A stretch of 32,432 bases of DNA, from the IMG/VR virus record IMGVR_UViG_2541047755_000010; one strand, written 5' to 3'. Below are positions 1 through 32,432 of the stretch, in pieces (positions within the stretch are counted from its first letter, which is position 1; each line of letters begins with the position of its first letter). The stretch is from a virus. Taxonomy: Duplodnaviria; Heunggongvirae; Uroviricota; Caudoviricetes. The notes under the pieces were generated by a model. That model was not told where the DNA came from, searched no databases, and saw only the letters and a list, made by a program, of their open reading frames with translations. The translations under genes were made by a program, and so were the position numbers.

Positions 1-17
1 AACACGAGCAAACAGAT

Positions 18-50
18 AAAAAAGGGCCAGCCAATTGGCCAGCCCTTCTT
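18..50 (-). terminator. GC-rich hairpin followed by a U-run on the minus-strand transcript; putative rho-independent terminator downstream of the 203..1132 gene
   Basis: Plus strand reads aaaaaagggccagccaattggccagcccttctt; on the minus strand this is a GC stem (AGGGC...GCCCU around a GGCCAAUUGGCU core) followed by UUUUUU. Confidence 0.45.
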
Positions 51-202
51 AACAGGATGTCGCTTAAGCGAAACCTTAGTTAAGACGCTTTTACATGATA
101 CCATTGATAAACATGCATTTTTCATTATAAACAGTTAGTTATATGTATCACTAGTGTAGTCAAGTGCAGCCATAAACATGCTGTGTGGGCAGATTGTGGA
201 CA

Positions 203-1132
203 CTACTTATTTCCCTGTCCAATCTTACCCGCAACTGCCTCGGTAAGCTTTACTAAGGTTTCAAGTTCATTTTTGTCTAATTTTCTTGCTTCAATAATTT
301 CAGTAGTCTGCCCTGATTCTAGTTTTCCAACTCTTGAGCTAAAATTAATTTTATCCAGAAGGTCTATCATATCGATATCTTTCTGGCTAGCCATTACAAG
401 CTTTATAATGGCATAGCTTTCCTCACGTGAACGTTTTATTGCCTCGTAATAGCGAAACTCATCCATCGTAACCCGATATTGCTTCAAAAAGAAAAATGCG
501 ATTAACTCCAAGAAAATCAACACGCCAAAATTAGGGAGAAGATACATTACCTTGGTTACCGCATCATCCTTAGCATCAATTACATGTGATTGAGAATAGA
601 AGAAACCTAATCCAACTATTGCAAAACAAACACCGACTAATAAATAAAGACTACCGCGAGAATATATGTTTTTCGCAAGACCTTCAGAGCTATTAATCAA
701 ACCTTTAAGATAAAAATCCAGAGATTCATCTTCATCAGCAGCAGCCCTTTCCTCTTGAGCCTTCTTGAGTAGTTTTATCTCATTTATAATATCGACAATA
801 TTAAACATCGATGATTTGTCGACTGAATCACTCCCTGTAATTCTCATAAACATTCTTTGGATTGGAGACACACCATAGATAATGGTGTAAACGATTACAA
901 ATGACACTGCGAATATTGACCTGATAAAGCTCGGCAAATGTGTAAGATCTGCTCTCGCACTGGGAAATAAATAATAAAAGGTTGAGTCTAATATCCCTGT
1001 AGCAAAAATTACATTTGCAACTAGAAAGACTGCACCTATCTCAACTAAATTATAAAAACCACGAGTGCGTACCCTAATGACTTTGGCCTCGGTCATTCTT
1101 GGAGGTGTTTCGATGGTTGGCTCACTCATCAT
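203..1132 (-). CDS. hypothetical multi-pass membrane protein (309 aa), AT-rich accessory gene overlapping the 3' end of int
   Basis: Intact ORF with at least four hydrophobic helix-length segments (e.g. LVEIGAVFLVANVIFATGIL, IRSIFAVSFVIVYTIIYGV, LYLLVGVCFAIVGLGFFY, VMYLLPNFGVLIFLELIAFFFL) and charged coiled-coil-like linkers. Its start at 1132 overlaps the int stop at 1122-1124. Visibly AT-rich compared with the phage backbone. Confidence 0.6.
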   Translation of the reverse strand: MMSEPTIETPPRMTEAKVIRVRTRGFYNLVEIGAVFLVANVIFATGILDSTFYYLFPSARADLTHLPSFIRSIFAVSFVIVYTIIYGVSPIQRMFMRITGSDSVDKSSMFNIVDIINEIKLLKKAQEERAAADEDESLDFYLKGLINSSEGLAKNIYSRGSLYLLVGVCFAIVGLGFFYSQSHVIDAKDDAVTKVMYLLPNFGVLIFLELIAFFFLKQYRVTMDEFRYYEAIKRSREESYAIIKLVMASQKDIDMIDLLDKINFSSRVGKLESGQTTEIIEARKLDKNELETLVKLTEAVAGKIGQGNK

Positions 1133-2159
1133 ATAATCCTGTTAAATTAGAAATAGGGTTAAGAGTTACAGCTTCTTCTAAATGATCTGGTGCAAAATGA
1201 GCGTATCTCATGGTTTCCCTAATGTTAGAATGGCCCAAGATTCGTTGCAGTACTAAAATGTTCCCACCATTCATCATAAAGTGACTCGCAAATGTATGAC
1301 GTAACACATGCGTTTTTTGCCCTTCAGCTAACTCTATATCGGTCAGAGCGAGCATTTTCTTGAACTCCTGATAGCAGGGGTGGAACATTTTTCCCTGTAA
1401 AGGAGCCAACTCGTCATATAGCCACCGAGGGATCGGTACTGTACGATTCTTCTTTCCCTTCGTTTTAGTGAAAGTCAACTTGTGGGGTGAAAGCTGTGAA
1501 CGAGTAAGACGCTCGGCCTCGCTCCATCGAGCACCAGTCGCTAAGCACACTTTGACGATACGGGTTAAATAAATTTTCCCGTATGACTCACAAGCATTGA
1601 GCACTTCGCGAATTTGAGGCTGGGTAAGCCAAGACATTTCTTTTTCGGCTTCTTTGAAAACTCGCACACCTTCGAGAGGATTTGGCAGACTCCACTCACC
1701 CAAGCGCTTCAGCTCATTGAAAACAGCTTCGAGGTACTGTTGTTCCCGGTTCACAGTCACAGGTTTCGCAATCCACTTTTCAGAATTTGCGTGATAGCCA
1801 TTGTCGATTTCACCCTTGAGACGTTTATCCCGATAATGGGCGAAATCTTTGGCGGTAAGCTGGGTAGCGATTGGGTCGCCAAGACCCCGGCAAACAATGT
1901 GCAGTTTGGCCAATCGCGATTTGCTGGCAGCGAGCGACTGGCCATGGAGGTTATGCCACAGCTCAATCAGTTCACTCAAACGTCGACGGTCTTCCTTCTC
2001 ACCCATCCACGGCTTATTTTGTGCCTCTTCTCGGTAATACTGCTCGAAGGCAACGGCTTCACCTTTGGTTGAAAACTTCTTACGCACGCGGCGACTTTCA
2101 GCCCCGTCGACGCGGAAATCACAAAGCCATTCACCCGATGTCAGTTTTTTAACACTCAT
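1122..2159 (-). CDS. int: tyrosine site-specific integrase (P2/186 family)
   Basis: 345-aa ORF with the C-terminal catalytic region typical of tyrosine recombinases (…THVLRHTFASHFMMNGGNILVLQRILGHSNIRETMRYAHF…). Lies immediately downstream of cI on the same strand, as in 186. Confidence 0.93.
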   Translation of the reverse strand: MSVKKLTSGEWLCDFRVDGAESRRVRKKFSTKGEAVAFEQYYREEAQNKPWMGEKEDRRRLSELIELWHNLHGQSLAASKSRLAKLHIVCRGLGDPIATQLTAKDFAHYRDKRLKGEIDNGYHANSEKWIAKPVTVNREQQYLEAVFNELKRLGEWSLPNPLEGVRVFKEAEKEMSWLTQPQIREVLNACESYGKIYLTRIVKVCLATGARWSEAERLTRSQLSPHKLTFTKTKGKKNRTVPIPRWLYDELAPLQGKMFHPCYQEFKKMLALTDIELAEGQKTHVLRHTFASHFMMNGGNILVLQRILGHSNIRETMRYAHFAPDHLEEAVTLNPISNLTGLYDE

Positions 2160-2163
2160 ATCG

Positions 2164-2742
2164 TTAGCTAGATTTCGTCAGGCTTACCAGCACCATGCCA
2201 ATACACTTAACCTCAGAAACTGAGCATTGAAAATCGGCATCAGCGTTGCTGACTTTTATTCTGTTCCCCGGGATCCTTGCAACGTCATAGACATCATGAT
2301 CCCCGTCGATACTGAGCATCCATCGCCCATTTGCTATATCAGTCATATCAAAATCAACTATCCAGGACTGCTGGCCTTTTACTATGTAATTGGGGTGCGT
2401 CGCCTCAGTAGAAAAGAGGTTAGCATCAACAATCCAATGACCGTTTTCCTGCAGCTTACCTGCAACAATATCCAATCGGTCTAATGTTTTCATTTCGCCA
2501 TTAGTATGGTCTGCATCAAACTTGTTCCCCTTCCCTGTTGCCAACCAACGTAAAGACACCCCAGTGTCCAAAGCGCATGCAACAACAACATCCCCGGGGA
2601 AAAAATTACGCCGAACCCAAGTGCTGATTGTTCCCGATGACAGCTCATGCAAGTCACCGAGTTGTTTTTGCATGGTGAAGCCATACGCATCAAGGATGCG
2701 CTGCAGCACTGCTTTTCCACCCTCTAACTCATCCAATTTCAT
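2164..2742 (-). CDS. cI: 186-type CI immunity repressor (192 aa from the internal ATG; ORF extends to 2781)
   Basis: N-terminal HTH-like segment (LQRILDAYGFTMQKQLGDLHELSSGTISTWV) plus a C-terminal domain. Divergent from apl across a short switch region and 5 bp upstream of int. Start at 2742 is chosen because the M1 codon at 2781 would sit inside the opposing promoter/operator. Confidence 0.8.
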   Translation of the reverse strand: MKLDELEGGKAVLQRILDAYGFTMQKQLGDLHELSSGTISTWVRRNFFPGDVVVACALDTGVSLRWLATGKGNKFDADHTNGEMKTLDRLDIVAGKLQENGHWIVDANLFSTEATHPNYIVKGQQSWIVDFDMTDIANGRWMLSIDGDHDVYDVARIPGNRIKVSNADADFQCSVSEVKCIGMVLVSLTKSS

Positions 2743-2774
2743 CTTAAAAATCCGAGTTATCGCGAAAATCCAAA

Positions 2775-2803
2775 TTGACATCTCGCTTTTTCGAGATAAG
2801 ATT
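2775..2803 (+). promoter_or_regulatory. candidate lytic promoter (pR-like) with an operator dyad in the spacer
   Basis: TTGACA at 2775-2780, the perfect dyad atctcgctttttcgagat at 2780-2797, and a TAAGAT -10-like hexamer at 2797-2802, all upstream of apl. A direct repeat of TCTCGCTT follows at about 2803. Confidence 0.5.
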
Positions 2804-2867: not shown

Positions 2868-3092
2868 ATGACTCCACAAATTGCAATCCCGTCCGGCGCG
2901 GATCTCATGACTTATGACGAATTTGCTGAATGCTACGGCTACAGCATTCGCACTGTAAAACAGATGGTTGCTGATGGAGATCTCCTCCTGATGCCCCGTA
3001 AAAAAGACGGTGGTGCTGCGCGTATCAATATGGTTGCCTTCCGTGCTCGACTCTTGGCTCAGGGCCTTAATTGCCGCTATGTGGCAGCCTAA
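2868..3092 (+). CDS. apl: Apl/Cox-like excisionase and switch regulator (74 aa)
   Basis: Small HTH-type ORF with a GGAGA RBS, first gene of the rightward operon opposite cI, followed by cII as in 186. Confidence 0.7.
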   Translation: MTPQIAIPSGADLMTYDEFAECYGYSIRTVKQMVADGDLLLMPRKKDGGAARINMVAFRARLLAQGLNCRYVAA

Positions 3093-6915: not shown

Positions 6916-7098
6916 ATGGTTGGGAAACATTTCAGCCGAACGCAGCAAAAGTGGGCTTGTGTGCAATTTATCGCCGAGATATCTCTTATTGCCAACTGCA
7001 AACCGGCAGATTTGAAGCTGGCACTAACTCTGATTGCCGGCCTAGCTAACAGCGAAAGCGACGAAGAAAAAGACGAAATTTTCTATAAGGCTGAATAG
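6916..7098 (+). CDS. SOS-inducible small protein, Tum-like antirepressor candidate (60 aa)
   Basis: Strong RBS (GGGAGGGA) and ATG directly downstream of the LexA box. Position after the replication gene matches 186 tum, but the ORF is much shorter than 186 Tum as I recall it. Confidence 0.5.
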   Translation: MVGKHFSRTQQKWACVQFIAEISLIANCKPADLKLALTLIAGLANSESDEEKDEIFYKAE

Positions 7099-7379
7099 GT
7101 AAACGCGCTGATGCAAAAACTAGATTTTGGCGTCAGCGGGTTTGAACAACGAGCCGCGCGAGGCGTTAGCCTGCCCTTGAAAATCTGACCATGGCCGGCA
7201 CTTTCAAAGTCGTTTTTTATGCCATTTTTCCACGAATTTCCCGTTTTTTAGCTGTGCATGCATCAGGCGCATGATTTTGCATGCGACATGGGTTGCACGT
7301 TCTAGCCGTGTGCCGCCACAGCTGGCGCGTATCCAGAGTGGTCATGCAACTGCATTAAAACCGCCCCATAAAGCGGGCA

Positions 7380-7469: not shown

Positions 7470-8453
7470 ATGGCAACGCAAGATTATAAGAGTAAAATGC
7501 TGCATTATCGCCATGCAATAATGCTTCCTAAAAAGGATGCTCTTTTAACATCAAACCTGCAAGATAGGTTGGCAAACCTTGTGAAAATCAAGGTTCCAAA
7601 TGTTGCTGATAGATTATTCTTCCCTGATGTTCCAGATAATAATGGTAATGTCGCTGCTCACGCCCACATGGTTCTTTCAAATAGCAAAGAAATTCATGGA
7701 ATGTTTTTTGCGGAAATTGTCTATATTGAACCGGGTAGTAGCATTCCTGTTTTCTCTGTTAGCGATTATGCTAAAACAGCTTTAACATACGAGACATTAA
7801 ATTTATCAAGTGGGAATGCTAGAGAGTATTTAGAAAGCATTGCATACATTGGTGTAATTAAGAACCACTTCATAATTCTGCAAAGCAGATCTATTAGAAT
7901 AAAAGATATTGAAAATTATATAAATTTCATACTACAAGACAACCTATCTATTACTGATGATAACTTCATCGTTTTACAGGCAAACAACCTGTCTCTAAAT
8001 ACGGATTTTTTAAAACGTAACATAGTAAAAAATGTTAGCTTAAAGCTGCCTTTAACCTACTATGGAAATAATATTGATGATACAGCTAGTGAGCTATTAA
8101 AAACGCTCGTAGGTGAACATCGAATTAATGAAATGAAGAAAAATGCCATTTTAAATGATGGTTCACCTGACAGGGAATCTCTATCAATTGATATTTCCAT
8201 TGGGTATAAATATAAAGCAAGCGAGTCTGAGCAAGACATGTTGCGTAAAATTACACAAGGCTTGGTTGATAATAGAGATGAAAGCTTAACAATTGAGTTA
8301 AAAGGTGCAGGAATACTCAGGAATGATGAGATTCAACTAAAGGATTCAGTTAATATTGAATACAGCAATGGAATGCTAATTGCTGACAACGTTGCTGAAG
8401 AAATGATTTCATGGTTATTGCGCTTACTAGACACCGGAGTAATTAACCCATGA
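7470..8453 (+). CDS. hypothetical soluble protein (327 aa), first gene of an AT-rich two-gene accessory cassette
   Basis: ATG with an AGAGGGA RBS; strongly AT-rich codon usage unlike the flanking phage genes; no recognisable catalytic motif by eye; its stop overlaps the next gene start (ATGA at 8450-8453). Confidence 0.7.
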   Translation: MATQDYKSKMLHYRHAIMLPKKDALLTSNLQDRLANLVKIKVPNVADRLFFPDVPDNNGNVAAHAHMVLSNSKEIHGMFFAEIVYIEPGSSIPVFSVSDYAKTALTYETLNLSSGNAREYLESIAYIGVIKNHFIILQSRSIRIKDIENYINFILQDNLSITDDNFIVLQANNLSLNTDFLKRNIVKNVSLKLPLTYYGNNIDDTASELLKTLVGEHRINEMKKNAILNDGSPDRESLSIDISIGYKYKASESEQDMLRKITQGLVDNRDESLTIELKGAGILRNDEIQLKDSVNIEYSNGMLIADNVAEEMISWLLRLLDTGVINP

Positions 8454-9136
8454 TAAACAATACGTTACAAACATATGCAAAAAACATAGCAAGCTCAATT
8501 GTAATTGGGCTTATATGTGGTTTTGTTATTGTTTTTGTTTATTCAAAATACTCATTTTTAATTGATTTCGATCCTATAATTTCAAAGGGGATCTCTGTCT
8601 TTAGCGCCGTAATCATTAGCCTCATGTTTAAGCGACTAATTGATGCTGATGATAAAATAAAGGAGTTAGAACTCCCCGCAAACACTCCATCAAGGATAAA
8701 GGATTACTTTGATGATCAAAGAACTTCATACATTCTTGACACCACTAAAAACAAAGTAACCATTGCATATATTTTTACCCTGATTTTGTTTTTTTTGATA
8801 TCACTAACGTTATCAGCGTCAATAACAAAAGTTAATGTTTATTATGGGGTATTTTTTAATTCCGCACTAACGACTACTTGCTTGGTTTTTTCAGTGTATG
8901 CGATACTATTCATTAATAGACAGACGGACATTTCAAGAAACGCAAAGTCATTCTTAAGTGAAATAATAAAAACAGAACAAGAAAGACAAAAATTAATAGA
9001 CACCATAAATAAAAACATTCGTGATGGTGTTAGTAAGGTTAACACTACCGAAATAAGGAAAAACAAAGCATTCAATATTAGAGAGTATGTAGATAATTTA
9101 GAAAAAGAGGTTCCACCACCACAAGATAAGCAATAA
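8450..9136 (+). CDS. hypothetical four-helix membrane protein (228 aa), second gene of the cassette
   Basis: Four hydrophobic helix-length segments (IASSIVIGLICGFVIVFVY, ISVFSAVIISLMF, IAYIFTLILFFLISLTLSA, VYYGVFFNSALTTTCLVFSVYAILFI) followed by a charged coiled-coil-like C-terminal tail; translationally coupled to the upstream gene. Confidence 0.7.
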   Translation: MINNTLQTYAKNIASSIVIGLICGFVIVFVYSKYSFLIDFDPIISKGISVFSAVIISLMFKRLIDADDKIKELELPANTPSRIKDYFDDQRTSYILDTTKNKVTIAYIFTLILFFLISLTLSASITKVNVYYGVFFNSALTTTCLVFSVYAILFINRQTDISRNAKSFLSEIIKTEQERQKLIDTINKNIRDGVSKVNTTEIRKNKAFNIREYVDNLEKEVPPPQDKQ

Positions 9137-17078: not shown

Positions 17079-17508
17079 CGCCGTGCCGGTGCTGGCACGA
17101 AACCCCGATATGATGCGTGTCTTTATCGACAACGGGAATCTGGCCTCGACGCTGGCGACGTCGCTGTCGTTTGAGAACCGGTACACGCTGAATGTGGTGG
17201 TGACCGATTTCACGGATGATATCGAGCTGTTACTCGTCCCGATTCAGGCGTGGCTACGCATACATCAGGCTGACATTATGACGACCGATGAAGGGCGTAA
17301 AAAGGGATTCACCTATTTTGCCGATATCAACGACAACGACAGCGTCGATATCAGTATCAGTCTGATGCTGACCGAGCGCACTATCGTTAAAGAACAGGGG
17401 GATAAGCTTCACGTTGAACAGGCTGAAGAGCCGCAGCCGCCGGAGCCCGTTACCCGGCCAGTTGAGCTGTATGTTAACGGTGAGCTCGTGAGTCGATTGC
17501 ATGAATGA
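17041..17508 (+). CDS. R: tail completion protein (P2 gpR family)
   Basis: 155-aa ORF; size and position match P2 R. Confidence 0.85.
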   Translation: MYKPKSLRKALTDAVPVLARNPDMMRVFIDNGNLASTLATSLSFENRYTLNVVVTDFTDDIELLLVPIQAWLRIHQADIMTTDEGRKKGFTYFADINDNDSVDISISLMLTERTIVKEQGDKLHVEQAEEPQPPEPVTRPVELYVNGELVSRLHE

Positions 17509-17968
17509 CTTTAAACCCTTTGACGATACGCTCACGGGGCTGATAGCAGCGCTGTCTCCTGCCGCCCGTCGCAGAATGGCCGCAGATATCGCTAAGACCC
17601 TGCGAGCCCGTCAACAGCGCCGGATTAAAATGCAGAAAGCCCCGGACGGGACACCTTACGCCGCCCGAAAACGCCAGCCGGTAAAAGCCAAAACAGGCCG
17701 GGTTAAGCGGGAAATGTTCGCTAAGCTCCGCACCAGTCGCTTTATGAAAGCCACAGCGGGGAATGACTCGGCGGTCGTGGAATTTACCGGCAAGGTACAA
17801 CGGATGGCGAATGTGCATCAGTACGGTCTCAAAGATAAGCCTGGGCGAAACAGTGCGCCGGTACAGTATGACGCCCGAATGCTTATCGGGTTTGATCATG
17901 AATCAAAAAATATGATTCATGACATAATTATGGTTTCTTTAGCTGAGGCGGCTAGATCTATTGATTGA
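17501..17968 (+). CDS. S: tail completion protein (P2 gpS family); the 3' end is AT-rich and contains an inverted repeat
   Basis: 155-aa ORF following R. The last ~25 codons shift to AT-rich sequence and include the 10-bp inverted repeat tcatgaatca/tgattcatga (17896-17922). Confidence 0.8.
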   Translation: MNDFKPFDDTLTGLIAALSPAARRRMAADIAKTLRARQQRRIKMQKAPDGTPYAARKRQPVKAKTGRVKREMFAKLRTSRFMKATAGNDSAVVEFTGKVQRMANVHQYGLKDKPGRNSAPVQYDARMLIGFDHESKNMIHDIIMVSLAEAARSID

Positions 17969-18005
17969 TTTTATGTATTTTATTTTCTATACAAGTGAGG
18001 ATGTT

Positions 18006-19349
18006 ATGGAAAATAAAAAATATCAAGTATTTGTGAGCTCTACATACGTCGATTTAATTGATGCTCGCAAAAAAATCATAGAAACGGTCCTTAGTTTATA
18101 CCACTTTCCAGTTGGCATGGAGATGTTTAGCGCTGATGACTCTGAGCAGTGGGATATAATAAAGGAGACTATTGATGCTAGTGATTATTATGTGATTATC
18201 ATTGGGCATAAGTATGGGTCCGTTTCTAAAGATGGTATTAGCTATACTGAAATGGAATATAACTATGCTAAATCATTAAATATACCGGTGTTGGCTTTTA
18301 TTAGAGGGAGGGACGTTTTAACAAAACCACATGAACGAGAAAGTGACCCTCAAAAAGAAAAGCAACTAAATGCTTTTATTGAAAAAGCTAAAGCTAACAA
18401 AATGTGTGATTTTTGGGAGACAATTGATGAGTTAGCGACGAAGGTTGCTATCGCCTTACCAAAAGTAATGCGACGAAATCCACGAATAGGATGGGTGCGC
18501 GGTGACCAGGTCGCATCTAAAGAGATTACCGCCGAGTTGGCTGAGCTATCTAATGAAAATAGAAAATTAAGGGAAAAAGTCCGCGAATATGAAAGCCAAT
18601 TACATAGCGATGCACCTCAATTAGAGCTGAGCATGATTGATAATGACTTAGCTTTGACGGTGGATGTGGAGTCGACTTATCAGGATTACCTTCCACAACT
18701 ATGCAAGGAAGCGGTACCTCTTGAGTTGAAGGACACTATCACCATTGATGAGATTGAATCATATAACTCTTCACTGCCTACTGATAAAGATGTGGATTTA
18801 TATAATAAAAAAATGAGATTGCACTGTAATTACAAAAACAATGCAATTACAGTGAAGCCCGTTTTAAGAAATAATGGGAGGACTTTTGCGTCAAATGTTT
18901 ATGTTGAGATTGATTTTCCTGAATTCCTAATAGTGCTTAAAGGTTCTAATGAAGACTTATTTATAAAAGAGCCGAAATTAAAAATCCCTGAGTCCCCAAT
19001 AAGTAAGCATAAAAAAAGACTCAGTGCTATAATGTCACTCGAAAATTTTAGGATGGGTATTTTTGATGATACATCGATGGTAATGGCTAAACCTCATTTC
19101 GAAGTGCCAGCAATAATTAAACGGATGGCTGATTTAGGAACAGTTAACCAAGATGAGTGGGTCATGAAAGAGGACCATAAAATCACGTTGCGTGCGAAAA
19201 AAGTGTTACAGAGCTTAACTGTTGAGTATGAGGAAATAGTCATCATTCCCTTAACGATTGGCTCTGGAGTTATTAATTTTAAAATTATATGTGAGCAATT
19301 GAAGGAGCCTGTTGTTTTTTCTCGTCAGGTTACAGTTACCCCAAGCTAG
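18006..19349 (+). CDS. AT-rich accessory protein (447 aa) with a DUF4062/TIR-like N-terminal domain, a coiled-coil linker and an uncharacterised C-terminal domain
   Basis: ATG at 18006 preceded by GAGGA. N-terminus KYQVFVSSTYVDLIDARKK…YYVIIIGHKYGSV…IPVLAFIRG resembles the DUF4062/TIR-like N-terminal pattern as I recall it. Coiled coil around ELAELSNENRKLREKVREYESQL. Sits between S and V, where P2 carries orf30. Confidence 0.7.
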   Translation: MENKKYQVFVSSTYVDLIDARKKIIETVLSLYHFPVGMEMFSADDSEQWDIIKETIDASDYYVIIIGHKYGSVSKDGISYTEMEYNYAKSLNIPVLAFIRGRDVLTKPHERESDPQKEKQLNAFIEKAKANKMCDFWETIDELATKVAIALPKVMRRNPRIGWVRGDQVASKEITAELAELSNENRKLREKVREYESQLHSDAPQLELSMIDNDLALTVDVESTYQDYLPQLCKEAVPLELKDTITIDEIESYNSSLPTDKDVDLYNKKMRLHCNYKNNAITVKPVLRNNGRTFASNVYVEIDFPEFLIVLKGSNEDLFIKEPKLKIPESPISKHKKRLSAIMSLENFRMGIFDDTSMVMAKPHFEVPAIIKRMADLGTVNQDEWVMKEDHKITLRAKKVLQSLTVEYEEIVIIPLTIGSGVINFKIICEQLKEPVVFSRQVTVTPS

Positions 19350-19425
19350 TTTTTGTATGTTGTGCCATATCTGGTAAAACCCGCATTAATTGCCGTCCAG
19401 AGCACCGGGCGGCATCCTTCCTTGT

Positions 19426-20067
19426 ATGAATACTCGCGCAACTCTTCAGGACGCTTTACGCCTCCTTCGCAACCTGATACGTACCGGCGTCGTCGTCGAA
19501 GTTGACCTCGATGACGGGCGCTGTCGCGTCCAGACTGGCGGCATTGTTACCGACTGGCTTCAGTGGCTGACCACACGCGCCGGTCGTTCACGTGTCTGGT
19601 GGGCTCCGTCTGTGGGCGAGCAGGTTTTACTGCTGGCCGTGGGTGGTGAACTCGACACCGCTTTTGTGCTGCCCGGCATTTTTTCGGATGACCACCCCGC
19701 GCCGTCGGCGTCGGCTGATGCTTTTCACATCACCTTTCCTGATGGGGCTGTTATCGAGTACGAGCCGGAGACCGGCGCGCTGACCGTGAGCGGCATTAAA
19801 ACCGCAGACGTTACGGCGTCGGATTCCATCACCGCGACGGTACCGCTGGTGACGGTGAAAGCCGAGACCCGCATCACCCTCGATACACCGGAAGTGGTCT
19901 GCACCAACAAACTGACGACGGCGACGCTTGAGGTACAACAAGGCGGCACCATGCGCGGAAACATCGAACACACCGACGGTACGTTTAAATCCAACGGCGT
20001 TCAGGTCGACAGCCACGGTCACGGCGGTGTGCAAAGAGGTGGAGCCTGGACGGAGGGCACGAAATGA
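19426..20067 (+). CDS. V: baseplate spike protein (P2 gpV family)
   Basis: 213 aa from the ATG at 19426; size and position match P2 V (211 aa). Confidence 0.85.
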   Translation: MNTRATLQDALRLLRNLIRTGVVVEVDLDDGRCRVQTGGIVTDWLQWLTTRAGRSRVWWAPSVGEQVLLLAVGGELDTAFVLPGIFSDDHPAPSASADAFHITFPDGAVIEYEPETGALTVSGIKTADVTASDSITATVPLVTVKAETRITLDTPEVVCTNKLTTATLEVQQGGTMRGNIEHTDGTFKSNGVQVDSHGHGGVQRGGAWTEGTK

Positions 20068-21928: not shown

Positions 21929-22632
21929 CGACTAAATATTTTGCCATTCTGACCCATCAGGGCGCGGCGCGACTGGCAAACGCGACCGCACTCGGTACTA
22001 AACTGAATATTACACAAATGGCCGTCGGGGACGGAAACGGCACACTGCCGACACCTGACCCGGCTCAGACAAAGCTCATTAACGAGCGTCGCCGCGAGCT
22101 GCTAAATTCACTGGCAGTAGATGCTAACGACACCGGTCAGATTATTGCCGAGCAGATCATCCCGGAAAACGAGGGCGGTTTCTTTATCCGCGAAATCGGT
22201 CTTTACGATGATGAAGGTATCCTGATTGCTGTCGCCAACTGCCCGGAAACCTATAAACCGTTACTGGCTGAGGGGAGCGGCCGAACGCAGACCATTCGCA
22301 TGATTCTCGTTGTCTCGAGCACTTCGGCGATCACCTTAAAAATCGACCCGTCAGTCGTGCTGGCAACCCGTAAATATGTCGACGATGCAGTCATCGAGGT
22401 GAAGAGCTACGCCGACAAACTCATGAAAGATCATGAGGCAAAGGCTAACCCGCATAAGCAATACCCGCTGATTGCGAACGCACTAAAAGAAATGGCCGAC
22501 GCCGGATTGGTTGCTGAGGTTCTCAAAAACCTTGGTTTAGGAGAAGCGTCGGAAATAAATGTTGGTGTACGGGCACAGCGGACTTCCGATACTCCTCGAT
22601 CCAGCTTTCCGGAATGCAGTACTGGGGATTAA
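21925..22632 (+). CDS. H: tail fibre protein, conserved N-terminal region only (235 aa); apparently truncated shortly after a DNA-invertase crossover site
   Basis: N-terminus MTTKYFAILTHQGAARLANATALGTKLNITQMAVGDGNG… and …ATRKYVDDAV… match the constant N-terminal part of P2 H / Mu S-type tail fibres. The ORF stops about 28 codons after the crossover site at 22520-22545, whereas P2 H is about 669 aa as I recall. Confidence 0.75.
   Translation: MTTKYFAILTHQGAARLANATALGTKLNITQMAVGDGNGTLPTPDPAQTKLINERRRELLNSLAVDANDTGQIIAEQIIPENEGGFFIREIGLYDDEGILIAVANCPETYKPLLAEGSGRTQTIRMILVVSSTSAITLKIDPSVVLATRKYVDDAVIEVKSYADKLMKDHEAKANPHKQYPLIANALKEMADAGLVAEVLKNLGLGEASEINVGVRAQRTSDTPRSSFPECSTGD
22520..22545. repeat. 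left recombination site (gix/hix/cix-like 26-bp crossover site) inside the tail-fibre gene
   Basis: ttctcaaaaacc-TT-ggtttaggagaa fits the TTnTCnnAAACC / GGTTT half-site pattern of Hin/Gin/Cin/Pin sites; its inverted partner is at 24367-24392. Confidence 0.75.
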
Positions 22633-22668
22633 AATTCAGCATCATATTTGGTACTTCAGTAGGGTTCC

Positions 22669-22944
22669 ATGGCAACTCCATTCATTGATCTACGTGGTGA
22701 GATCAATCGTGCGAGTGCATACCGAAACGGAAGTCTTCCTGTTTGGATCTTACAATCGTCCCAAGGAGATGGCATTCCAGTTAGTTTTAGTGCATGTGCA
22801 GATTTCAGTTTTAATCCGGATACATTTATATCCAGCGCCAGTACTCCCAGCGTCAGCGGAGATTCTTCATCGTTAGGATGTAAATGTAGTTATATAGAGC
22901 GAGTAATATATTATGCTTACAGAGTTGTTCCAACTTCATACTAA
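22669..22944 (+). CDS. hypothetical small protein (91 aa) in frame with H but separated from it by two stop codons; possible remnant of a variable tail-fibre segment
   Basis: Same frame as H; Ser/Gly/Thr-rich; a divergent inverted copy of this DNA lies near the other end of the segment. Confidence 0.3.
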   Translation: MATPFIDLRGEINRASAYRNGSLPVWILQSSQGDGIPVSFSACADFSFNPDTFISSASTPSVSGDSSSLGCKCSYIERVIYYAYRVVPTSY

Positions 22945-23351
22945 ACCCTAGATCGTAACGAGGATTTTACTTATGTTGTGAGGGCGGCCTAATAAACAAT
23001 GGAATATTATGTGAAGGCGTAAATGGCATAAAAGGGGTAGACGCTGAAATTAATAATCCTTATCGCGGGACGAAGGGGTTTTCCTGCATGTTAAGAGAAT
23101 CCACCGCCGATGGCGTAGGAACCCATGGCTGTTCCCGAATAGATAAAGCAGCAACACATAAAGCTGGTCAAGCATTATACGGACCGGCAGAAATGGACTC
23201 ATAGAGAGGTGTTCGAGACCCTCACGGGGAAATAACCTGCACCATCGAATCTGGGGCATCATTATATGTACGCGCTGGAGCTGGTTGCCCTGAAAATTGC
23301 TCCAGTTTTGGCACGTTATACGCATATGGTAATTGAGGTCAGGAGAAATCC

Positions 23352-23588
23352 GTGGCGGTGACGGTAGCTCATCCTGTTACCGCGTCAGACTCATCCGAAA
23401 CACAGTGCCGTTGGGTGGTTGATGCCGCCGTCGACTCCCGTACGCCCAGTCATCTGAGCTTACAGGGAGTAAGGAAATCGATTGAGGCAGAAACAACTGA
23501 CTTTAACTCCGTGTTTGATGCGACTGCCGCGGTGCTGGCCAGAGCTTCCATCTCCGCGCCGGATTTCATATGGCCCCAATTGCCATAG
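23352..23588 (+). CDS. hypothetical small protein (78 aa)
   Basis: GTG start preceded by an AGGAGA RBS at 5-nt spacing; no recognisable similarity. Confidence 0.3.
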   Translation: MAVTVAHPVTASDSSETQCRWVVDAAVDSRTPSHLSLQGVRKSIEAETTDFNSVFDATAAVLARASISAPDFIWPQLP

Positions 23589-24366
23589 GGGTTGGACATG
23601 GCGTTACTGGAGGTATTGACATGTCAATCACTCGGAGCGCTGCCAGCTATTGATGCTACTATTTATATTGTGCAAGTTACTTCCCCTTCATGCGCCGGCT
23701 CGCAGCCTTACCAGGTCAAAGTTGCCGGACCACATAATCGATAGCCTGATTAATGAGTAGCTGCTGCTCCAGTACGACTGCAGGCATCTATTCCTCCTGT
23801 GTCCGCAATAGATTCTCTGACTATGCAAATATATTCTCGCCTTTCGCGATCATGATTATACATGTTAGCGGTACTCGGGTTTATGGAATTTACGTTGTCT
23901 TTTCATCCTGCATTACTTAACAGGCAGATCTCACGATATAATTAAAGTCATTGTTACTATCCAGGGTTTAGTTTGAAGTTGGAACCACTCAAGAAGCATC
24001 ATATATTACTCACTCTACATAGCTACCTTTACTGCCTTCAGATAAAGATGATGCGACGACGCCAGTTGTACTAGCGCCAGATTTAGATTGGTACGTATTG
24101 AAACTGAAACCCGCACATGCAATAAAACCATTTCGAACGGTATCTGCTGTTTACGATTGTAAGCCAAAAACAGTATCACTTCCTTTTGCGTATGCAAACC
24201 CAAGATGGAATACACCATGTAAAGCAAGGAATTTTTCTCTGATGTAACCCTATGCAAGAATAAGGTATTATTGAGATTTATGAGATCCACTGTTGGATTT
24301 AAACCGGCTTATTCGCCCAGTAGCAGGAGTCCACTTAACAGGTGCACCAACGGGTAATGCCGAACC

Positions 24367-24392
24367 TTCTCCCAAACCAACGTTTAAGAAAA
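24367..24392. repeat. right recombination site (inverted partner of the 22520-22545 site)
   Basis: ttctcccaaacc-AA-cgtttaagaaaa; its reverse complement ttttcttaaacg-TT-ggtttgggagaa matches the left site in 11 of 12 positions of the right half-site with the same TT core. Confidence 0.7.
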
Positions 24393-24446
24393 TGTAGTTT
24401 TCCCCCCTAGCTGGCATCATTTGGGCTTTTGCATGAGGGAAAACAA

Positions 24447-25025
24447 ATGCAGGTTGGCTATGTGCGCGTATCAACAAATGAACAAAATACCGCGCTACAG
24501 CGTGACGCGCTGGAACGGTCGGGATGTGAGCTAATTTTCGAGGATAAAATCAGCGGTAAATCGACAAACAGGCCAGGGTTAAATCGCGCACTCAGGCAAC
24601 TTAATGCCGGTGATACTCTCGTTGTCTGGAAGCTCGACAGGCTCGGGCGTAGCATGCGCCATCTTGTCTCTATGACTGAAGAGCTTCGCCAGCGAGGGGT
24701 TAATTTCAGAAGCCTGACCGACAGTATTGATACCTCAACCCCGATGGGGCGATTTTTCTTTCACATCATGGGCGCTCTTGCAGAAATGGAACGCGAGTTA
24801 ATCGTCGAACGAACCCGCGCCGGGCTGGATGCAGCCCGGGCACAAGGCAGGATCGGAGGTCGTAGGCCGAAGCTGACGCCTGATGAATGGGCTCAGGCTG
24901 GCCGGTTGATTGCGGCCGGAGAATCCCGACAGCGTGTTGCACTGATTTTTGATGTGGGCATATCGACGCTGTATAAAAAATTTCCGGCGACAAATCCCGT
25001 TGTGTCAGCCACCGGCGAACCCTGA
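24447..25025 (+). CDS. serine recombinase, DNA invertase of the Hin/Gin/Cin/Pin family
   Basis: 192 aa from the ATG at 24447; MQVGYVRVSTNEQNTALQRDALERSGCELIFEDKISGKSTNRPGL…LVVWKLDRLGRSMRHL…FRSLTDSIDTSTPMGRFFFHIMGALAEMERELIVERTRAGL…GRIGGRRPKLT… is near-collinear with Gin/Hin as I recall them, including the catalytic Ser in YVRVSTNEQ. Confidence 0.93.
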   Translation: MQVGYVRVSTNEQNTALQRDALERSGCELIFEDKISGKSTNRPGLNRALRQLNAGDTLVVWKLDRLGRSMRHLVSMTEELRQRGVNFRSLTDSIDTSTPMGRFFFHIMGALAEMERELIVERTRAGLDAARAQGRIGGRRPKLTPDEWAQAGRLIAAGESRQRVALIFDVGISTLYKKFPATNPVVSATGEP

Positions 25026-25089
25026 CAAATAGCCGCATACAGGCGTAAACCAGACAATATCACTCACCTCAACTAACGGAGTTAAACGG

Positions 25090-26277
25090 ATGAGTGATTA
25101 TCATCACGGTGTCGAGGTCGTCGAAATTAACGACGGCACCCGCACAATCTCGACGGTATCAACGGCGGTCGTTGGCATGGTCTGCACAGCCAGTGATGCT
25201 GACGCCGGGGCTTTCCCTCTCAATGAGCCGGTGCTGATTACCAACCCACAAAGCGCCATCGCAAAAGCCGGTACTAAAGGTACCCTGGCAAAATCCTTAC
25301 AGCTCATCGCTAACCAGTCAAAACCGGTTGTCGTTGTTGTGCGTGTCGCGGAGGGTACCGGCGACGGCGAAGAGGCACAGGCGCAAACCATTTCTAACAT
25401 CATCGGCACCACGGATGAGAATGGCAAATATACCGGGATGAAAGCGCTGTTAACGGCGAAAGCGGTCACCGGCGTGAAGCCACGTATTCTCGGTGTGCCG
25501 GGGCTCGATACTCAGGAGGTGGCGACCGCGCTTGTCTCCGTGGCTCAGAAGCTGCGCGCTTTCGCCTATGTCAGCGCGTGGGGCTGTAAAACCATTGCTG
25601 ACGTTATCGCCTACCGCGAAAACTTCAGCGCCCGTGAGCTCATGATTATCTGGCCTGACTTCCTCGGGTGGGATACCACGGCCAACGCGACCACAACCAG
25701 TTATGCAACAGCGATCGCGTTGGGACTGCGCGCAAAAATCGACAATGACACAGGCTGGCATAAAACCCTGTCAAACGTCGGCATCAATGGCGTCACCGGT
25801 ATCAGTGCGTCGGTCTTCTGGGATTTGCAGGAATCTGGCACTGATGCCGACCTGCTGAATGAGGCCGGTGTTACGACGCTGATTCGTGCCGATGGTTTCC
25901 GCTTCTGGGGTAACCGTAATTGCTCCGATGACCCGCTGTTTCAGTTTGAGAACTACACCCGCACCGCACAGGTCATAGCCGACACAATAGCCGAGGGGCA
26001 TATGTGGGCGAACGATAAGCCCATCACCGCGACGTTGATTCGCGACATTATCGACGGCATCAACGCGAAATTCCGCGAGCTGAAAACCGGCGGTTACATC
26101 ATCGATGCGACGTGCTGGTTTGACGAAGAGGCCAACAGTAAAGAAACCCTGAAAGCCGGGAAACTGTTTATCGATTATGACTATACGCCGGTGCCGCCAC
26201 TCGAACACCTGACCTTACGCCAGCGCATTACTGATAAATATCTGGCGAATCTTATCTCGTCCGTCAACAGCAAATAA
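25090..26277 (+). CDS. FI: tail sheath protein (P2 gpFI family)
   Basis: 395-aa ORF (P2 FI is 396 aa) followed by the tail tube gene. Confidence 0.9.
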   Translation: MSDYHHGVEVVEINDGTRTISTVSTAVVGMVCTASDADAGAFPLNEPVLITNPQSAIAKAGTKGTLAKSLQLIANQSKPVVVVVRVAEGTGDGEEAQAQTISNIIGTTDENGKYTGMKALLTAKAVTGVKPRILGVPGLDTQEVATALVSVAQKLRAFAYVSAWGCKTIADVIAYRENFSARELMIIWPDFLGWDTTANATTTSYATAIALGLRAKIDNDTGWHKTLSNVGINGVTGISASVFWDLQESGTDADLLNEAGVTTLIRADGFRFWGNRNCSDDPLFQFENYTRTAQVIADTIAEGHMWANDKPITATLIRDIIDGINAKFRELKTGGYIIDATCWFDEEANSKETLKAGKLFIDYDYTPVPPLEHLTLRQRITDKYLANLISSVNSK

Positions 26278-26289
26278 GGAGCCTGACAA

Positions 26290-26808
26290 ATGGCATTACC
26301 GCGCAAGCTCAAACTCATGAACCTGTTTATCGATGGGGTGAGTTATCTCGGCGTCGTGCAGTCCGTCACGCTGCCGAAATTAACCCGCAAGCTCGAGAAC
26401 TATCGCGGCGGCGGGATGAATGGTTCGGCACCGGTCGACCTCGGCCTCGATGACGATGCGCTGTCGGCTGAAATCTCTCTCGGCGGCTTCCCCGATGACG
26501 CTATCTGGTCGTTATACGCTGCCACCGGCGCGGCCTCCGTACCGCTACGTTTTGCCGGGTCTTACCAGCGTGATGACACCGGCGAGACCGTGCCGGTTGA
26601 GGTTGTTCTCCGTGGCCGTCAGAAAGAAATCGACCTCGGTGAAGCCAAACAGGGCGAAGACACCGAGTCGAAAATCGCTCTCGCGTGTACCTATTTCAAG
26701 CTGACGATGAATGGCTCGGAACTGGTGGAAATCGACACCGTGAACCTCATCGAAAAAGTGAACGGCACCGACATGCTCGAGGCGCACCGACAAAATATCG
26801 GCCTGTAA
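26290..26808 (+). CDS. FII: tail tube protein (P2 gpFII family)
   Basis: 172-aa ORF, same length as P2 FII; AAGGAG RBS. Confidence 0.9.
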   Translation: MALPRKLKLMNLFIDGVSYLGVVQSVTLPKLTRKLENYRGGGMNGSAPVDLGLDDDALSAEISLGGFPDDAIWSLYAATGAASVPLRFAGSYQRDDTGETVPVEVVLRGRQKEIDLGEAKQGEDTESKIALACTYFKLTMNGSELVEIDTVNLIEKVNGTDMLEAHRQNIGL

Positions 26809-26870
26809 TTTATGCCCCGGTCAGCATGGCTGGCCGGGCATCCTGAAACCAGAATTTAACGAGAAATATC

Positions 26871-27143
26871 ATGGATAAAACTAACGAAAATATCGTCACT
26901 CTGATTAAACCCATTAAGCGCGGTGAGCAGGTTATTACCGACGTCACCCTGTTAAAACCGTGTGCCGGAACCCTTCGCGGTGTCAGCCTGGCATCTGTCG
27001 CAAACTCTGACGTCGATGCGCTGATTAAAGTGCTGCCGCGCATGACCATGCCGTCGCTGACCGAGCAGGAAGCCGCCGCACTGGAGCTGCCCGACCTGCT
27101 GTCGTTTGCCGGTAAGGTGGTCGGTTTTTTGTCACCGAGTTAG
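26871..27143 (+). CDS. E: tail assembly chaperone (P2 gpE family); an E+E' fusion is predicted by -1 frameshifting up to 27304
   Basis: 90-aa ORF ending just after the slippery run GGTTTTTTG (27123-27131). The -1 frame continues open to 27304 and encodes …TELGGVTFPQKLSVDDLMADIAVIFHWSPSDLYPMSLTELVNWREKALQRSGNTNE, overlapping the start of T. Confidence 0.8.
   Translation: MDKTNENIVTLIKPIKRGEQVITDVTLLKPCAGTLRGVSLASVANSDVDALIKVLPRMTMPSLTEQEAAALELPDLLSFAGKVVGFLSPS
27123..27131 (+). other. programmed -1 ribosomal frameshift slippery site (E to E+E')
   Basis: T6 run (G GTT TTT TG) 4 codons before the E stop, with an open -1 frame of about 58 further codons. Confidence 0.7.
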
Positions 27144-27296
27144 GCGGCGTAACCTTCCCGCAAAAACTCTCGGTCGATGACCTGATGGCTGACATAGCGG
27201 TAATTTTCCACTGGTCGCCATCAGACCTGTATCCCATGAGCCTGACCGAACTCGTCAACTGGCGCGAAAAAGCGCTACAGCGAAGCGGAAACACGA

Positions 27297-31709: not shown

Positions 31710-32432
31710 TTAGATTGGTAATGAAAAAGCTATCGCCTTGCAGATATGTTGCTTTGTTAACGCAGGATGTGTTGAAGCAAAAAGCGATAAAAAGCTTTTA
31801 GCTTCAACCGAATCATCATTAAGCGAAATATTATCTTTGATGAATGGATGAAGTGCGATTCCAGCGCTCATAGATAACGGCACATAGTTGATGAATATAT
31901 CTTCTTTTGTGAGACCTAGCTGGTTTGCTTGTGCTTCAAATGAATTAGCATCTAAATAATCACGTATACGTTCTTTGGCCTCTGGTCGGAGTCTCGATTC
32001 TTGACGCGGCAGAGAAAGCATCTTATCAATATCTCCCCATGAGATAGGAACCTCAAAATAGCCACCACCTTCTTCCTCTGGAGGTGCCGGGAAATTCACA
32101 TAAAAATAGTTTTTTTGCTGTGTAGGGTCGTTCATGGACTGACGATGATAGTTATAAATACTTCTAATACGGTTGGCCTTGTTATGATGCCGAGCATTTC
32201 GAATAACAAGCATCATTAATAATTCAGGTTTCAAATACCAGTCAGGCTCTAATCCATTGCTTTGCATGTTGTCATACAAATTATGAAAAGCATTAAGTTG
32301 TGTATTCAGGCCCGATTCTAAATTGCCAATTGCTTCAGCACGATCAATAGCCAACAAACGCTGTAGTGACCAGTTAGACTCTAATAAAACCCGAAAGGCC
32401 TGTGCAAGATCTTCAAAAGAGTGGGAAAGCAT
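31710..32432 (-). CDS. hypothetical protein (at least 240 aa; the N-terminus may lie beyond the window edge), AT-rich
   Basis: Long minus-strand ORF convergent with ogr and running to the window edge; AT-rich compared with the phage backbone; no recognisable motif by eye. Confidence 0.55.
   Translation of the reverse strand: MLSHSFEDLAQAFRVLLESNWSLQRLLAIDRAEAIGNLESGLNTQLNAFHNLYDNMQSNGLEPDWYLKPELLMMLVIRNARHHNKANRIRSIYNYHRQSMNDPTQQKNYFYVNFPAPPEEEGGGYFEVPISWGDIDKMLSLPRQESRLRPEAKERIRDYLDANSFEAQANQLGLTKEDIFINYVPLSMSAGIALHPFIKDNISLNDDSVEAKSFLSLFASTHPALTKQHICKAIAFSLPI

What the first reader, a model, noticed from the sequence alone, without database searches (positions are those of the whole stretch)
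203..1132. AT-rich multi-pass membrane protein gene overlapping the 3' end of the integrase gene
Seen in sequence: the 309-aa ORF starts 11 bp before the int stop on the same strand and is followed by a terminator hairpin, so it is probably co-transcribed with cI-int from the lysogenic promoter and therefore expressed in the lysogen. It is AT-rich, with about four transmembrane helices and charged coiled-coil loops. Inference: lysogenic conversion or superinfection-exclusion / abortive-infection cargo at the int-att junction.
Basis: partly seen in the sequence, partly recalled or inferred. Interest (0 to 1): 0.55.

Follow-up and report, generated by a model that had tools for sequence, protein, structure and literature searches.

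The report
Unnamed membrane cargo gene after integrase
A P2/186-like prophage of E. coli carries, between its integrase gene and its attachment site, a real four-helix membrane protein gene from a large, unnamed family that sits in the cargo slots of temperate phages and in defence islands. It is a good but untested candidate for a new anti-phage gene.

Summary
ORF 203-1132 (minus strand, 309 aa; likely true start 1129) overlaps the int stop, has 37% GC and four predicted TM helices. It is under purifying selection (dN/dS about 0.1).

It lies inside the prophage. The att core (window 76-89) is the 3' end of host rplS. The "terminator hairpin" (19-50) is the host rplS/yfiB terminator, beyond the att core.

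The protein matches no Pfam, NCBIfam, PADLOC or PDB entry, and no fold search gave a significant hit. It nevertheless belongs to a family of about 2,400 clusters (at 50% identity) across several bacterial phyla.

Family members have no conserved partner gene. They sit right after int in many P2-like prophages, in a second P2 hotspot, beside lysis cassettes of other prophages, and next to Lamassu, reverse-transcriptase and McrA-type genes. Intact copies survive in at least five decayed prophages.

Among sibling phages Int is 77-96% identical. The N-terminal half of this protein is only 17-32% identical, while a TM3-TM4/juxtamembrane core stays at 51-64%. In other sibling phages the same slot holds FRG/PDC-S15 or RelA-SpoT/PDC-S33 genes.

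Best reading: lysogen-expressed anti-phage membrane cargo, mechanism unproven.

The parts
203..1132 (-). Cargo ORF. The maximal ORF is 309 aa; the probable true start is at 1129 (308 aa, WP_001294850.1). Predicted 4-TM inner-membrane protein, N-in/C-in.
668..1132 (-). Fast-diverging N-terminal half (residues 1-155): cytoplasmic tail, TM1 (nt 992-1048, with invariant E31), a short periplasmic loop, TM2 (nt 869-946) and a charged helical cytoplasmic loop.
   Evidence: 17-32% identity between alleles whose Int is 77-96% identical. Nucleotide similarity to sibling prophages stops at about 1142-1171.
383..667 (-). Conserved core (residues 156-250): TM3 (nt 590-655; G167, G174), TM4 (nt 482-550; P200, F207, E209) and the juxtamembrane helix FFFLKQYRxxMDEFRYYEAIKRSREE.
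   Evidence: Alignment A1, invariant and near-invariant columns. 51-64% identity across alleles. Sub-threshold collinear hits to PF20712.
203..382 (-). C-terminal cytoplasmic tail (residues 251-309) and stop codon. Contains the conserved GKLExGQTTExxEARKL motif.
1122..2159 (-). Tyrosine integrase (Int_N + Phage_integrase). Its stop codon lies inside the start of the cargo ORF.
   Evidence: int and the ORF co-occur in 17 of 17 E. coli genomes
2164..2781 (-). 186-type CI repressor, the first gene of the leftward (lysogenic) operon.
   Evidence: (Phage_CI_repr, Phage_CI_C)
2930..2959 (-). pL-like sigma-70 match (TTTACA-18-TAGCAT). It faces a pR-like match at 2775-2802 (+), as in phage 186. This is a consensus match only.
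76..89 (.). att core TTAGTTAAG(A/G)CGCT, which is the last codons and stop codon of host rplS. The crossover lies within 86-89, so prophage DNA starts at about 90.
   Evidence: Comparison of attL, attB and attR.
90..202 (.). Phage-side att arm, the spacer between the core and the ORF stop codon. It is conserved (83%) in a sibling prophage that carries a 37%-identical allele.
   Evidence: L054
19..50 (-). Host rplS/yfiB intergenic terminator. It is the first strong terminator downstream of the ORF in the lysogen.
31710..32432 (-). Second end-cargo ORF (240 aa, 39% GC) between ogr and attR. In the circular phage it lies just downstream of the 309-aa ORF, across attP. Its relationship to the finding is positional only.

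Best explanation
The gene is lysogen-expressed accessory cargo (a 'moron') of a 186/P2-like prophage, and it encodes an inner-membrane anti-phage protein.

Proposed mechanism:
1. Shown from sequence: the gene is translationally coupled to int and sits downstream of cI-int.
2. Inferred: it is made at a low level in lysogens from the pL-type promoter.
3. Shown: it is a 4-TM, N-in/C-in protein. About 190 of its 309 residues are cytoplasmic.
4. Inferred: the strongly conserved module is the effector. This module is the TM3-TM4 hairpin with a membrane-embedded Glu (E209, plus E31 in TM1) and the charged, aromatic juxtamembrane helix. It would oligomerise to leak ions or depolarise the membrane.
5. 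Inferred: the rapidly diverging N-terminal half sets which incoming phage, or which cue, triggers it. That would make it a single-protein abortive-infection-type defence.

Estimated probabilities: the general claim (anti-phage or inter-element conflict cargo) about 0.6; the specific pore or abortive-infection mechanism about 0.3. The confidence value given for this explanation (0.35) refers to the full statement including the mechanism.
For: Position. The gene lies inside the prophage, between the att core and int.

Allele variation at the same slot. The same int-[family member]-att layout occurs in Cedecea (93% allele), in another E. coli (46% allele) and in at least 12 IMG/VR P2-like prophages. 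Int is 77-96% identical among these. The N-terminal half of the protein is 17-32% identical and the core 51-64%. Nucleotide homology breaks exactly at the int stop and resumes at the att arm.

The slot is a hotspot.
- Among 46 Int-relative loci with downstream sequence, several other co-oriented ORFs start within -34 to +26 nt of the int stop.
- These include FRG/PDC-S15 and RelA_SpoT/PDC-S33 proteins.
- PMC13586616 reports int-att as a minor P2 defence hotspot.
- PMC9519451 notes that the validated system PD-T7-4 often overlaps an integrase gene.

Family members fill other cargo slots.
- The slot in P2-like contigs between the homologs of window genes 17501-17968 and 19390-20067.
- The Nu1-lysis interval of a lambdoid Serratia prophage and the lysis end of an Alcaligenes prophage.
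- The int-att end of a Chromobacterium prophage, beside an SRA/McrA-type gene and a DUF4145 gene.
- Islands with Lamassu LmuB and PIN_12 in Pseudomonas.
- An island with a reverse transcriptase, an OLD-like TOPRIM protein and a kinase in Flavobacterium.
- PADLOC hits among neighbours within two genes: Ago, Shedu, Lamassu, RmrA and SoFic.

Other support.
- No conserved partner gene exists, so the protein is self-contained.
- Intact copies are retained in five decayed prophages: E2348/69, three in Citrobacter and one in E. hormaechei.
- dN/dS is 0.08-0.11.
- The core is conserved across Proteobacteria, Bacteroidota, Acidobacteriota and Bacillus.
- 27 of 63 members give weak, collinear hits to PF20712, a 2-TM domain named for association with TRADD-N conflict-system proteins.
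Against: - There is no experimental evidence of any kind.
- There is no significant sequence or fold similarity to any validated defence, Sie or Abi protein.
- The PF20712 hits score 11-15 bits against a threshold of 24.3, and they could reflect shared TM composition.
- Defence-gene enrichment among neighbours rests on small numbers (5 known defence genes among 115 neighbours in about 30 loci) with no formal background.
- Cargo hotspots also carry non-defence morons.
- Expression in the lysogen is inferred, not measured.
- tblastn with two members (the window allele and an Alcaligenes member) found no homolog among 50,697 deposited phage genomes, and the window allele found none in 72,556 plasmids. 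All phage links therefore come from predicted prophages.
Confidence: 0.35

Rival explanations
1. Superinfection exclusion. The membrane protein blocks DNA entry of incoming phages at the inner membrane without killing the cell. This would resemble P22 SieA, T4 Imm or HK97 gp15 in what it does.
For: It is an inner-membrane protein that is plausibly made constitutively with the repressor and integrase. The allelic diversification of TM1, the periplasmic loop and TM2 would fit tracking of different phage injection machineries.
Against: Only about 33 residues are predicted to be periplasmic; most of the mass is cytoplasmic. The core is conserved across phyla, including Bacteroidota and Bacillus, whose phages and envelopes differ, and that fits a host- and phage-independent effector better. 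No similarity to known Sie families was found.
Confidence: 0.2
2. Lysogenic conversion that is not aimed at phages. The protein would be an ion or solute channel or a stress-related membrane protein that benefits the host, which would explain why hosts keep it after the prophage decays.
For: Intact copies are retained in five prophage remnants under purifying selection. Conserved membrane-embedded glutamates (E31, E209) are typical of cation-handling proteins. Weak, non-significant fold hits to ExbB, PomA and TolQ were seen.
Against: The distribution is sporadic and mobile, with no stable host context. Strong allelic turnover at one locus is unusual for a housekeeping-type benefit. Neighbours are mostly phage and defence genes.
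Confidence: 0.15
3. A function for the phage itself. Examples are membrane-linked control of lysis timing, of lysogeny establishment, or of interference with satellites such as P4.
For: The gene is in an operon with int and, in the circular genome, sits next to attP. Some family members lie beside lysis cassettes.
Against: Most Int relatives lack it and carry unrelated genes in the slot, so it is dispensable for the phage. It also occurs in chromosomal islands without phage genes and is kept when every other phage gene has been lost.
Confidence: 0.1
4. A stator-like (MotA/ExbB/ZorA-type) proton channel that works with a partner encoded elsewhere.
For: The 4-TM topology, with a large TM2-TM3 cytoplasmic loop and a cytoplasmic tail, matches MotA. 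ExbB, PomA, TolQ and ZorA recur among weak Foldseek hits (E 0.5-1.6, TM-score 0.22-0.41).
Confidence: 0.05

Closest known systems
Defence and moron cargo of P2-like prophage hotspots (old/tin at A-Q, fun at Z; surveys PMC9122126, PMC9519451, PMC13586616)
   Same: It is low-GC and flanked by conserved core genes or att. Its content varies among closely related phages. Known or candidate defence genes occupy the same slot in siblings. The int-att interval is listed as a minor defence hotspot.
   Different: The protein is unrelated to any system catalogued in PADLOC v2. No phenotype is known.
PD-T7-4 (single-gene defence validated in E. coli, reported to often overlap an integrase gene; PMC9519451)
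   Same: A single gene that overlaps the end of an integrase gene on a mobile element.
   Different: No sequence similarity: the PADLOC scan of the window protein (E-value limit 10) returned only one chance-level match, to a Cas5a model. The domain content of PD-T7-4 was not examined here.
Lambda RexB (4-TM ion channel of the RexAB abortive-infection system)
   Same: Prophage-encoded, co-expressed with the repressor, and a 4-TM inner-membrane protein. Proposed action by membrane depolarisation.
   Different: RexB is about half the size and needs RexA. Here there is no partner gene and no sequence match.
2-TM conflict-system effectors (SLATT; Pfam PF20712 CyanoTRADDas_TM)
   Same: A conserved TM hairpin followed by a charged helix. 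Weak collinear matches of TM3-TM4 to PF20712 occur in 27 of 63 members. Two SLATT proteins appear among weak BFVD fold hits (E about 1.3-1.5).
   Different: All hits are below threshold. The family has two extra TM helices. It is not linked to nucleotide-signalling, TRADD-N or caspase partners.
MotA/ExbB/TolQ/ZorA stator subunits
   Same: The 4-TM topology and long cytoplasmic helices extending from the TM helices. Weak fold hits.
   Different: No sequence signal, no MotB/ExbD/ZorB-type partner, and no significant structural match.

Membership tests
P2/186-like prophage hotspot cargo (positional class) | Lies inside the prophage, between a core gene and att or between two core genes | tested here: met
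   The att core is at 76-89 and the ORF at 203-1132, followed by int.
P2/186-like prophage hotspot cargo (positional class) | Content of the slot varies among closely related phages, and its composition differs from the backbone | tested here: met
   At least 8 unrelated ORF families occur after Int relatives. GC is 37% against 51% for the window.
P2/186-like prophage hotspot cargo (positional class) | Known or candidate defence genes occupy the same slot in relatives | tested here: met
   PDC-S15/FRG (E 7e-112) and PDC-S33/RelA_SpoT proteins. Literature: PMC13586616.
Validated anti-phage defence system | Homology to a catalogued defence protein | tested here: not met
   PADLOC v2 gave only a chance-level Cas5a hit (E 0.0015). 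Nothing relevant in Pfam, NCBIfam or PHROGs.
Validated anti-phage defence system | Protection against phage when expressed | not testable with these tools
   Needs plaque and liquid-infection assays.
MotA/ExbB/TolQ/ZorA | Match to the family sequence models | tested here: not met
   No MotA_ExbB or ZorA hit for the window protein, and none among the families listed for the 63 members.
MotA/ExbB/TolQ/ZorA | Adjacent single-TM partner (MotB/ExbD/TolR/ZorB) | tested here: not met
   No conserved neighbour across 36 loci. The ZorB-model hits are the host OmpA-family gene yfiB.
MotA/ExbB/TolQ/ZorA | Fold similarity | tested here: inconclusive
RexB-type Abi channel | RexB homology and an adjacent RexA-like sensor gene | tested here: not met
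   No family hit and no conserved partner.
SLATT / CyanoTRADDas_TM 2-TM effectors | Match above the curated threshold | tested here: inconclusive
   PF20712 is hit by 27 of 63 members, but the best E-value is 5e-4 and the members examined score 11-15 bits against a cut-off of 24.3.
SLATT / CyanoTRADDas_TM 2-TM effectors | Fusion or operon with a nucleotide-signalling, TRADD-N or caspase component | tested here: not met
   Standalone protein of about 300 aa. Neighbours show no such recurrent domain.
Known superinfection-exclusion proteins (SieA/SieB, Imm, gp15 type) | Sequence homology | tested here: not met
   No such Pfam or PHROG hit. The only PHROG match is phrog_5157, of unknown function.

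The most novel reading that the evidence does not exclude
The family is a previously unrecognised, widespread class of single-protein anti-phage systems: about 2,400 clusters at 50% identity, spread across several phyla. Each protein would combine a fast-evolving N-terminal trigger module with a conserved, glutamate-bearing TM hairpin that acts as a gated ion leak. The family would be traded as a cassette among the cargo slots of P2-like, lambdoid and Mu-like prophages and defence islands.
Probability: 0.3. Interest if true: 0.65.

Novelty: new variant of a known kind. Interest (0 to 1): 0.45.

Why it matters
If the defence reading is right, this is a compact (about 0.9 kb), self-contained membrane immunity gene from a large family with no name or Pfam entry. 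Its natural allele series, with a conserved core and a variable N-terminal half on an almost constant phage backbone, is a ready-made experiment on how specificity evolves. It would also establish the int-att junction of 186-like phages as a real defence slot. It would further explain why hosts keep this one gene after the rest of the prophage is lost, including in the reference EPEC strain E2348/69. If the reading is wrong, the family still needs a function, because it is abundant, conserved and mobile.

Tried and rejected
- Family libraries. Pfam, NCBIfam, PADLOC and PHROGs scans of the protein gave no usable annotation. The only match was phrog_5157, of unknown function.
- PDB sequence search. 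A profile search of PDB sequences gave 0 hits at E up to 10.
- MotA/ExbB/ZorA idea. Rejected as family membership: no sequence signal and no partner gene.
- Conserved partner gene. All-against-all BLAST of the five genes on each side in 36 loci found none. It recovered only host synteny at rplS-yfiB, plus integrases.
- The 240-aa ORF at the other prophage end as a partner. It co-occurs with a family member only in this prophage lineage and in one E. hormaechei remnant.
- Deposited phages and plasmids. tblastn against 50,697 phage genomes (two family members as queries) and 72,556 plasmids (one query) found no match.
- Literature. A search for the protein accession gave 0 papers. The TRADD-N papers do not describe the PF20712 TM domain in the text that was read.
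- Second profile search. It was run to reach annotated remote relatives, but only the top 120 hits were listed and all were unannotated family members.
- Internal promoter. No convincing internal promoter was found in the int 3' end that all remnants retain.

Full report
**1. What is in the sequence**

The window is a P2/186-like prophage. Reading the minus strand from about 2960 down to 203 gives three genes in a row:
- A 186-type CI repressor at 2164-2781 (Phage_CI_repr and Phage_CI_C domains).
- A tyrosine integrase at 1122-2159 (Int_N and Phage_integrase domains).
- The ORF of the finding at 203-1132.

The ORF begins ATGATGAGTGA. The int stop codon (TGA, 1122-1124) lies inside it, so the overlap is 11 nt from the first ATG. 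PGAP and the Cedecea and Citrobacter orthologs use the second ATG (1129), which has AGGA 7-8 nt upstream. That gives the classic 8-nt coupled overlap.

GC content is 37.0%, against 46.9% for int and 50.9% for the window.

Hydropathy gives four TM segments. The K/R distribution predicts an N-in/C-in topology with only about 33 periplasmic residues. The AF2 model (pLDDT 74) is all-helical, and TM3 and TM4 extend into long cytoplasmic helices.

The gene is real. Its dN/dS is 0.08-0.11 against orthologs that are 93% and 86% identical, and it has thousands of homologs.

**2. Where the prophage ends**

Window 1-89 is identical to the empty yfiB-rplS intergenic region found in essentially all E. coli genomes. 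I compared attL (in the window), attB (strain 118UI) and attR (PCN033, locus L002). The shared core is TTAGTTAAG(A/G)CGCT at window 76-89, with the crossover within 86-89.

This core is the last codons and the stop codon of rplS. The phage supplies a synonymous replacement for the rplS end and its own terminator at attR.

The strong hairpin that follows the ORF (50..19) is the host rplS/yfiB terminator. It lies 150 nt beyond the stop codon and on the host side of the core.

A pL-like promoter match (2959..2930) faces a pR-like match (2775-2802), as in phage 186. No convincing minus-strand terminator lies between it and the ORF end. Co-transcription with cI-int is plausible but not measured.

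**3. Distribution in E. coli**

The ORF and this integrase occur together in 17 of 5,426 complete genomes: 13 with the full prophage end and 4 E2348/69 assemblies. In E2348/69 int is truncated and fused to tail genes, yet the ORF is intact.

**4. The protein family**

- No Pfam, NCBIfam or PADLOC family matches. The only PHROG match is phrog_5157, of unknown function.
- A profile search of PDB sequences found nothing.
- Foldseek against PDB and BFVD found nothing significant.
- An exhaustive profile search found 2,405 clusters at 50% identity with E<=1e-3 (318 at <=1e-30). Almost all of the 150 listed are 280-400 aa.
- Members come from Enterobacterales, Pseudomonas, Alcaligenes, Chromobacterium, Bacteroidota, Acidobacteriota and Bacillus.

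The alignment (A1, 63 sequences) shows a variable N-terminal half and a sharply conserved core. The core runs from TM3 (G167, G174) through TM4 (P200, F207, E209) into the juxtamembrane helix FFFLKQYRxxMDEFRYYEAIKRSREE. E31 in TM1 is also invariant.

The only recurrent remote signal is to Pfam PF20712 (CyanoTRADDas_TM, a 68-residue 2-TM domain). It is hit by 27 of 63 members, collinear with TM3-TM4, but always below threshold: the members examined score 11-15 bits against a cut-off of 24.3. I treat this as a lead, not a classification.

**5. Genomic context of relatives**

No partner gene is conserved across 36 loci. The recurring theme is mobile cargo.

(a) After int in P2/186-like prophages. 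The layout CI-int-[family member]-att is found in:
- Cedecea (93% allele, same yfiB-rplS site).
- Another E. coli (46% allele, same site).
- At least 12 IMG/VR P2-like contigs of about 33-34 kb, where the gene is the terminal gene.

(b) Other cargo slots.
- Two P2-like contigs carry a member between the homologs of window genes 17501-17968 and 19390-20067. In the window that slot holds a DUF4062 ORF.
- One contig has a member between CI and int.
- A Serratia lambdoid prophage has one between Nu1 and the lysis genes.
- An Alcaligenes prophage has one beside its lysis cassette.
- A Chromobacterium prophage has one at its int-att end, next to an SRA/McrA-type gene and a DUF4145 gene.

(c) Defence islands.
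- Pseudomonas copies sit in integrase-bearing islands with Lamassu and a PIN_12 protein.
- A Flavobacterium copy sits beside a reverse transcriptase, an OLD-like TOPRIM protein, a kinase and a Mu-like prophage.

(d) Neighbours within two genes. A scan of 115 such neighbours found 4 integrases and PADLOC hits to Ago, Shedu, Lamassu, RmrA and SoFic proteins. This is suggestive, but the numbers are small and there is no formal background.

(e) Decayed prophages. Five independent remnants keep an intact family member together with only 136-390 bp of the int 3' end: E2348/69, three in Citrobacter and one in E. hormaechei.

**6. Signs of an arms race at this slot**

Among phages whose Int is 77-96% identical to this one, the three parts of the protein differ as follows:

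| Region (residues) | Identity to the window allele |
|---|---|
| N-terminal half (1-155) | 17-32% |
| Conserved core (156-250) | 51-64% |
| C-terminal tail (251-309) | 37-58% |

Nucleotide similarity to sibling prophages stops at window 1142-1171, which is the int stop. It resumes weakly in the conserved core and again in the att arm at 202..16.

Of 46 Int-relative loci with at least 300 bp of downstream sequence, 5 carry a family member. Several others carry unrelated co-oriented ORFs that start within -34 to +26 nt of the int stop. These include FRG/PDC-S15 (E 7e-112), RelA_SpoT/PDC-S33, a different 4-TM protein, and unknown proteins of 395-509 aa.

Published work agrees with this picture:
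- A 2026 survey reports the int-att interval as a minor P2 defence hotspot, holding 3% of P2 systems (PMC13586616).
- The validated system PD-T7-4 'often overlaps an integrase gene' (PMC9519451).

**7. Most likely function**

The evidence supports accessory, lysogen-expressed, inter-element-conflict cargo with a probability of about 0.6.

Within that, I favour a single-protein, abortive-infection-type membrane effector (about 0.3), for these reasons:
- The conserved part is a TM hairpin with a membrane-embedded glutamate and a charged juxtamembrane helix.
- That core is conserved across phyla with very different phages.
- Most of the protein is cytoplasmic.
- The variable half looks like a specificity module.

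The alternatives are:
- Classical superinfection exclusion at DNA entry (0.2).
- A conversion function not aimed at phages, such as ion handling (0.15).
- A function for the phage itself (0.1).
- A stator-like channel with a remote partner (0.05).

None of these has been tested experimentally.

**8. Comparison with known systems and novelty**

In position and behaviour the gene matches P2-hotspot defence cargo. All three positional criteria were tested and met.

It is not a member of any catalogued defence, Sie, RexB, SLATT or MotA/ExbB family. The sequence criteria were tested and not met, or were inconclusive for PF20712. The partner criteria were not met.

I rate it a new variant of a known kind: an unnamed protein family in a recognised class of locus.

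Interest is moderate. New candidate defence genes in P2 hotspots are expected. However, the size of the family, its conserved glutamate-bearing core, the clean allele series and the repeated retention in dead prophages make it a well-defined experimental target.

Noticed in passing
window 31710-32432 (-): A 240-aa ORF (39% GC) between ogr and attR, with no Pfam or PADLOC hit. A 91%-identical copy sits next to a family member in an E. hormaechei rplS-yfiB prophage remnant. A 66%-identical homolog lies directly after int in IMG/VR locus L070. In the circular phage the int-ogr interval is therefore one cargo region split by attP.
   Followed up: partly
window 7470-8453 and 8450-9136 (+): Two ORFs that overlap by 4 nt (327 and 228 aa, 33% GC) in the classic P2 hotspot between replication gene A and the portal gene. 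Neither has a Pfam or PADLOC match. This is a candidate uncharacterised two-gene system.
   Followed up: partly
window 17961-19349 (+): A 462-aa DUF4062 protein (E 2e-28, 36.5% GC), inserted between genes annotated 'virion morphogenesis protein' and 'baseplate assembly protein V'. In IMG/VR loci L055 and L056 the equivalent slot holds a member of the 309-aa family.
   Followed up: partly
window 4579-about 6801 (+): Replication endonuclease gene A is annotated as a pseudogene ('internal stop') in PCN033. In the window the ORF ends at 6726. The prophage may be replication-defective.
   Followed up: no
window 22549-23802 and 23803-30065: The window is not identical to PCN033. The tail-fibre and invertible region next to a recombinase-family (invertase-type) gene (24429-25025) has no match to PCN033 and lacks long ORFs. 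The following 6.3 kb is only 97.3% identical.
   Followed up: partly
L002 2568-2654 (attR side, outside the window): The phage carries its own copy of the rplS 3' end (synonymous CGT to CGC) and a replacement intrinsic terminator. Integration therefore leaves L19 intact but swaps its terminator.
   Followed up: partly
window 1133-1534; L004, L006, L009, L014, L147: All five prophage remnants that keep the ORF also keep 136-390 bp of the int 3' end upstream of it. This could mean a promoter lies inside int, but none was recognisable.
   Followed up: partly
L152/L153 6800-7951; L033 8614-9765; possibly L013 5625-6746: In Pseudomonas a protein of about 380 aa lies about 45-50 nt upstream of the family member on the same strand. 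It carries a PIN_12 domain in L152 and L153, and the Pfam scan of neighbours found two PIN_12 proteins. This may be a clade-specific two-gene arrangement inside Lamassu-containing islands.
   Followed up: no
L006 4860-4940 and about 7035-7118: The Citrobacter remnant is flanked by two copies of the roughly 85-bp host terminator/att region. Both are about 85% identical to window 18-101.
   Followed up: no
L001 3518-4000 (just left of the window): yfiB, next to attL, is annotated as a pseudogene with an internal stop in PCN033.
   Followed up: no
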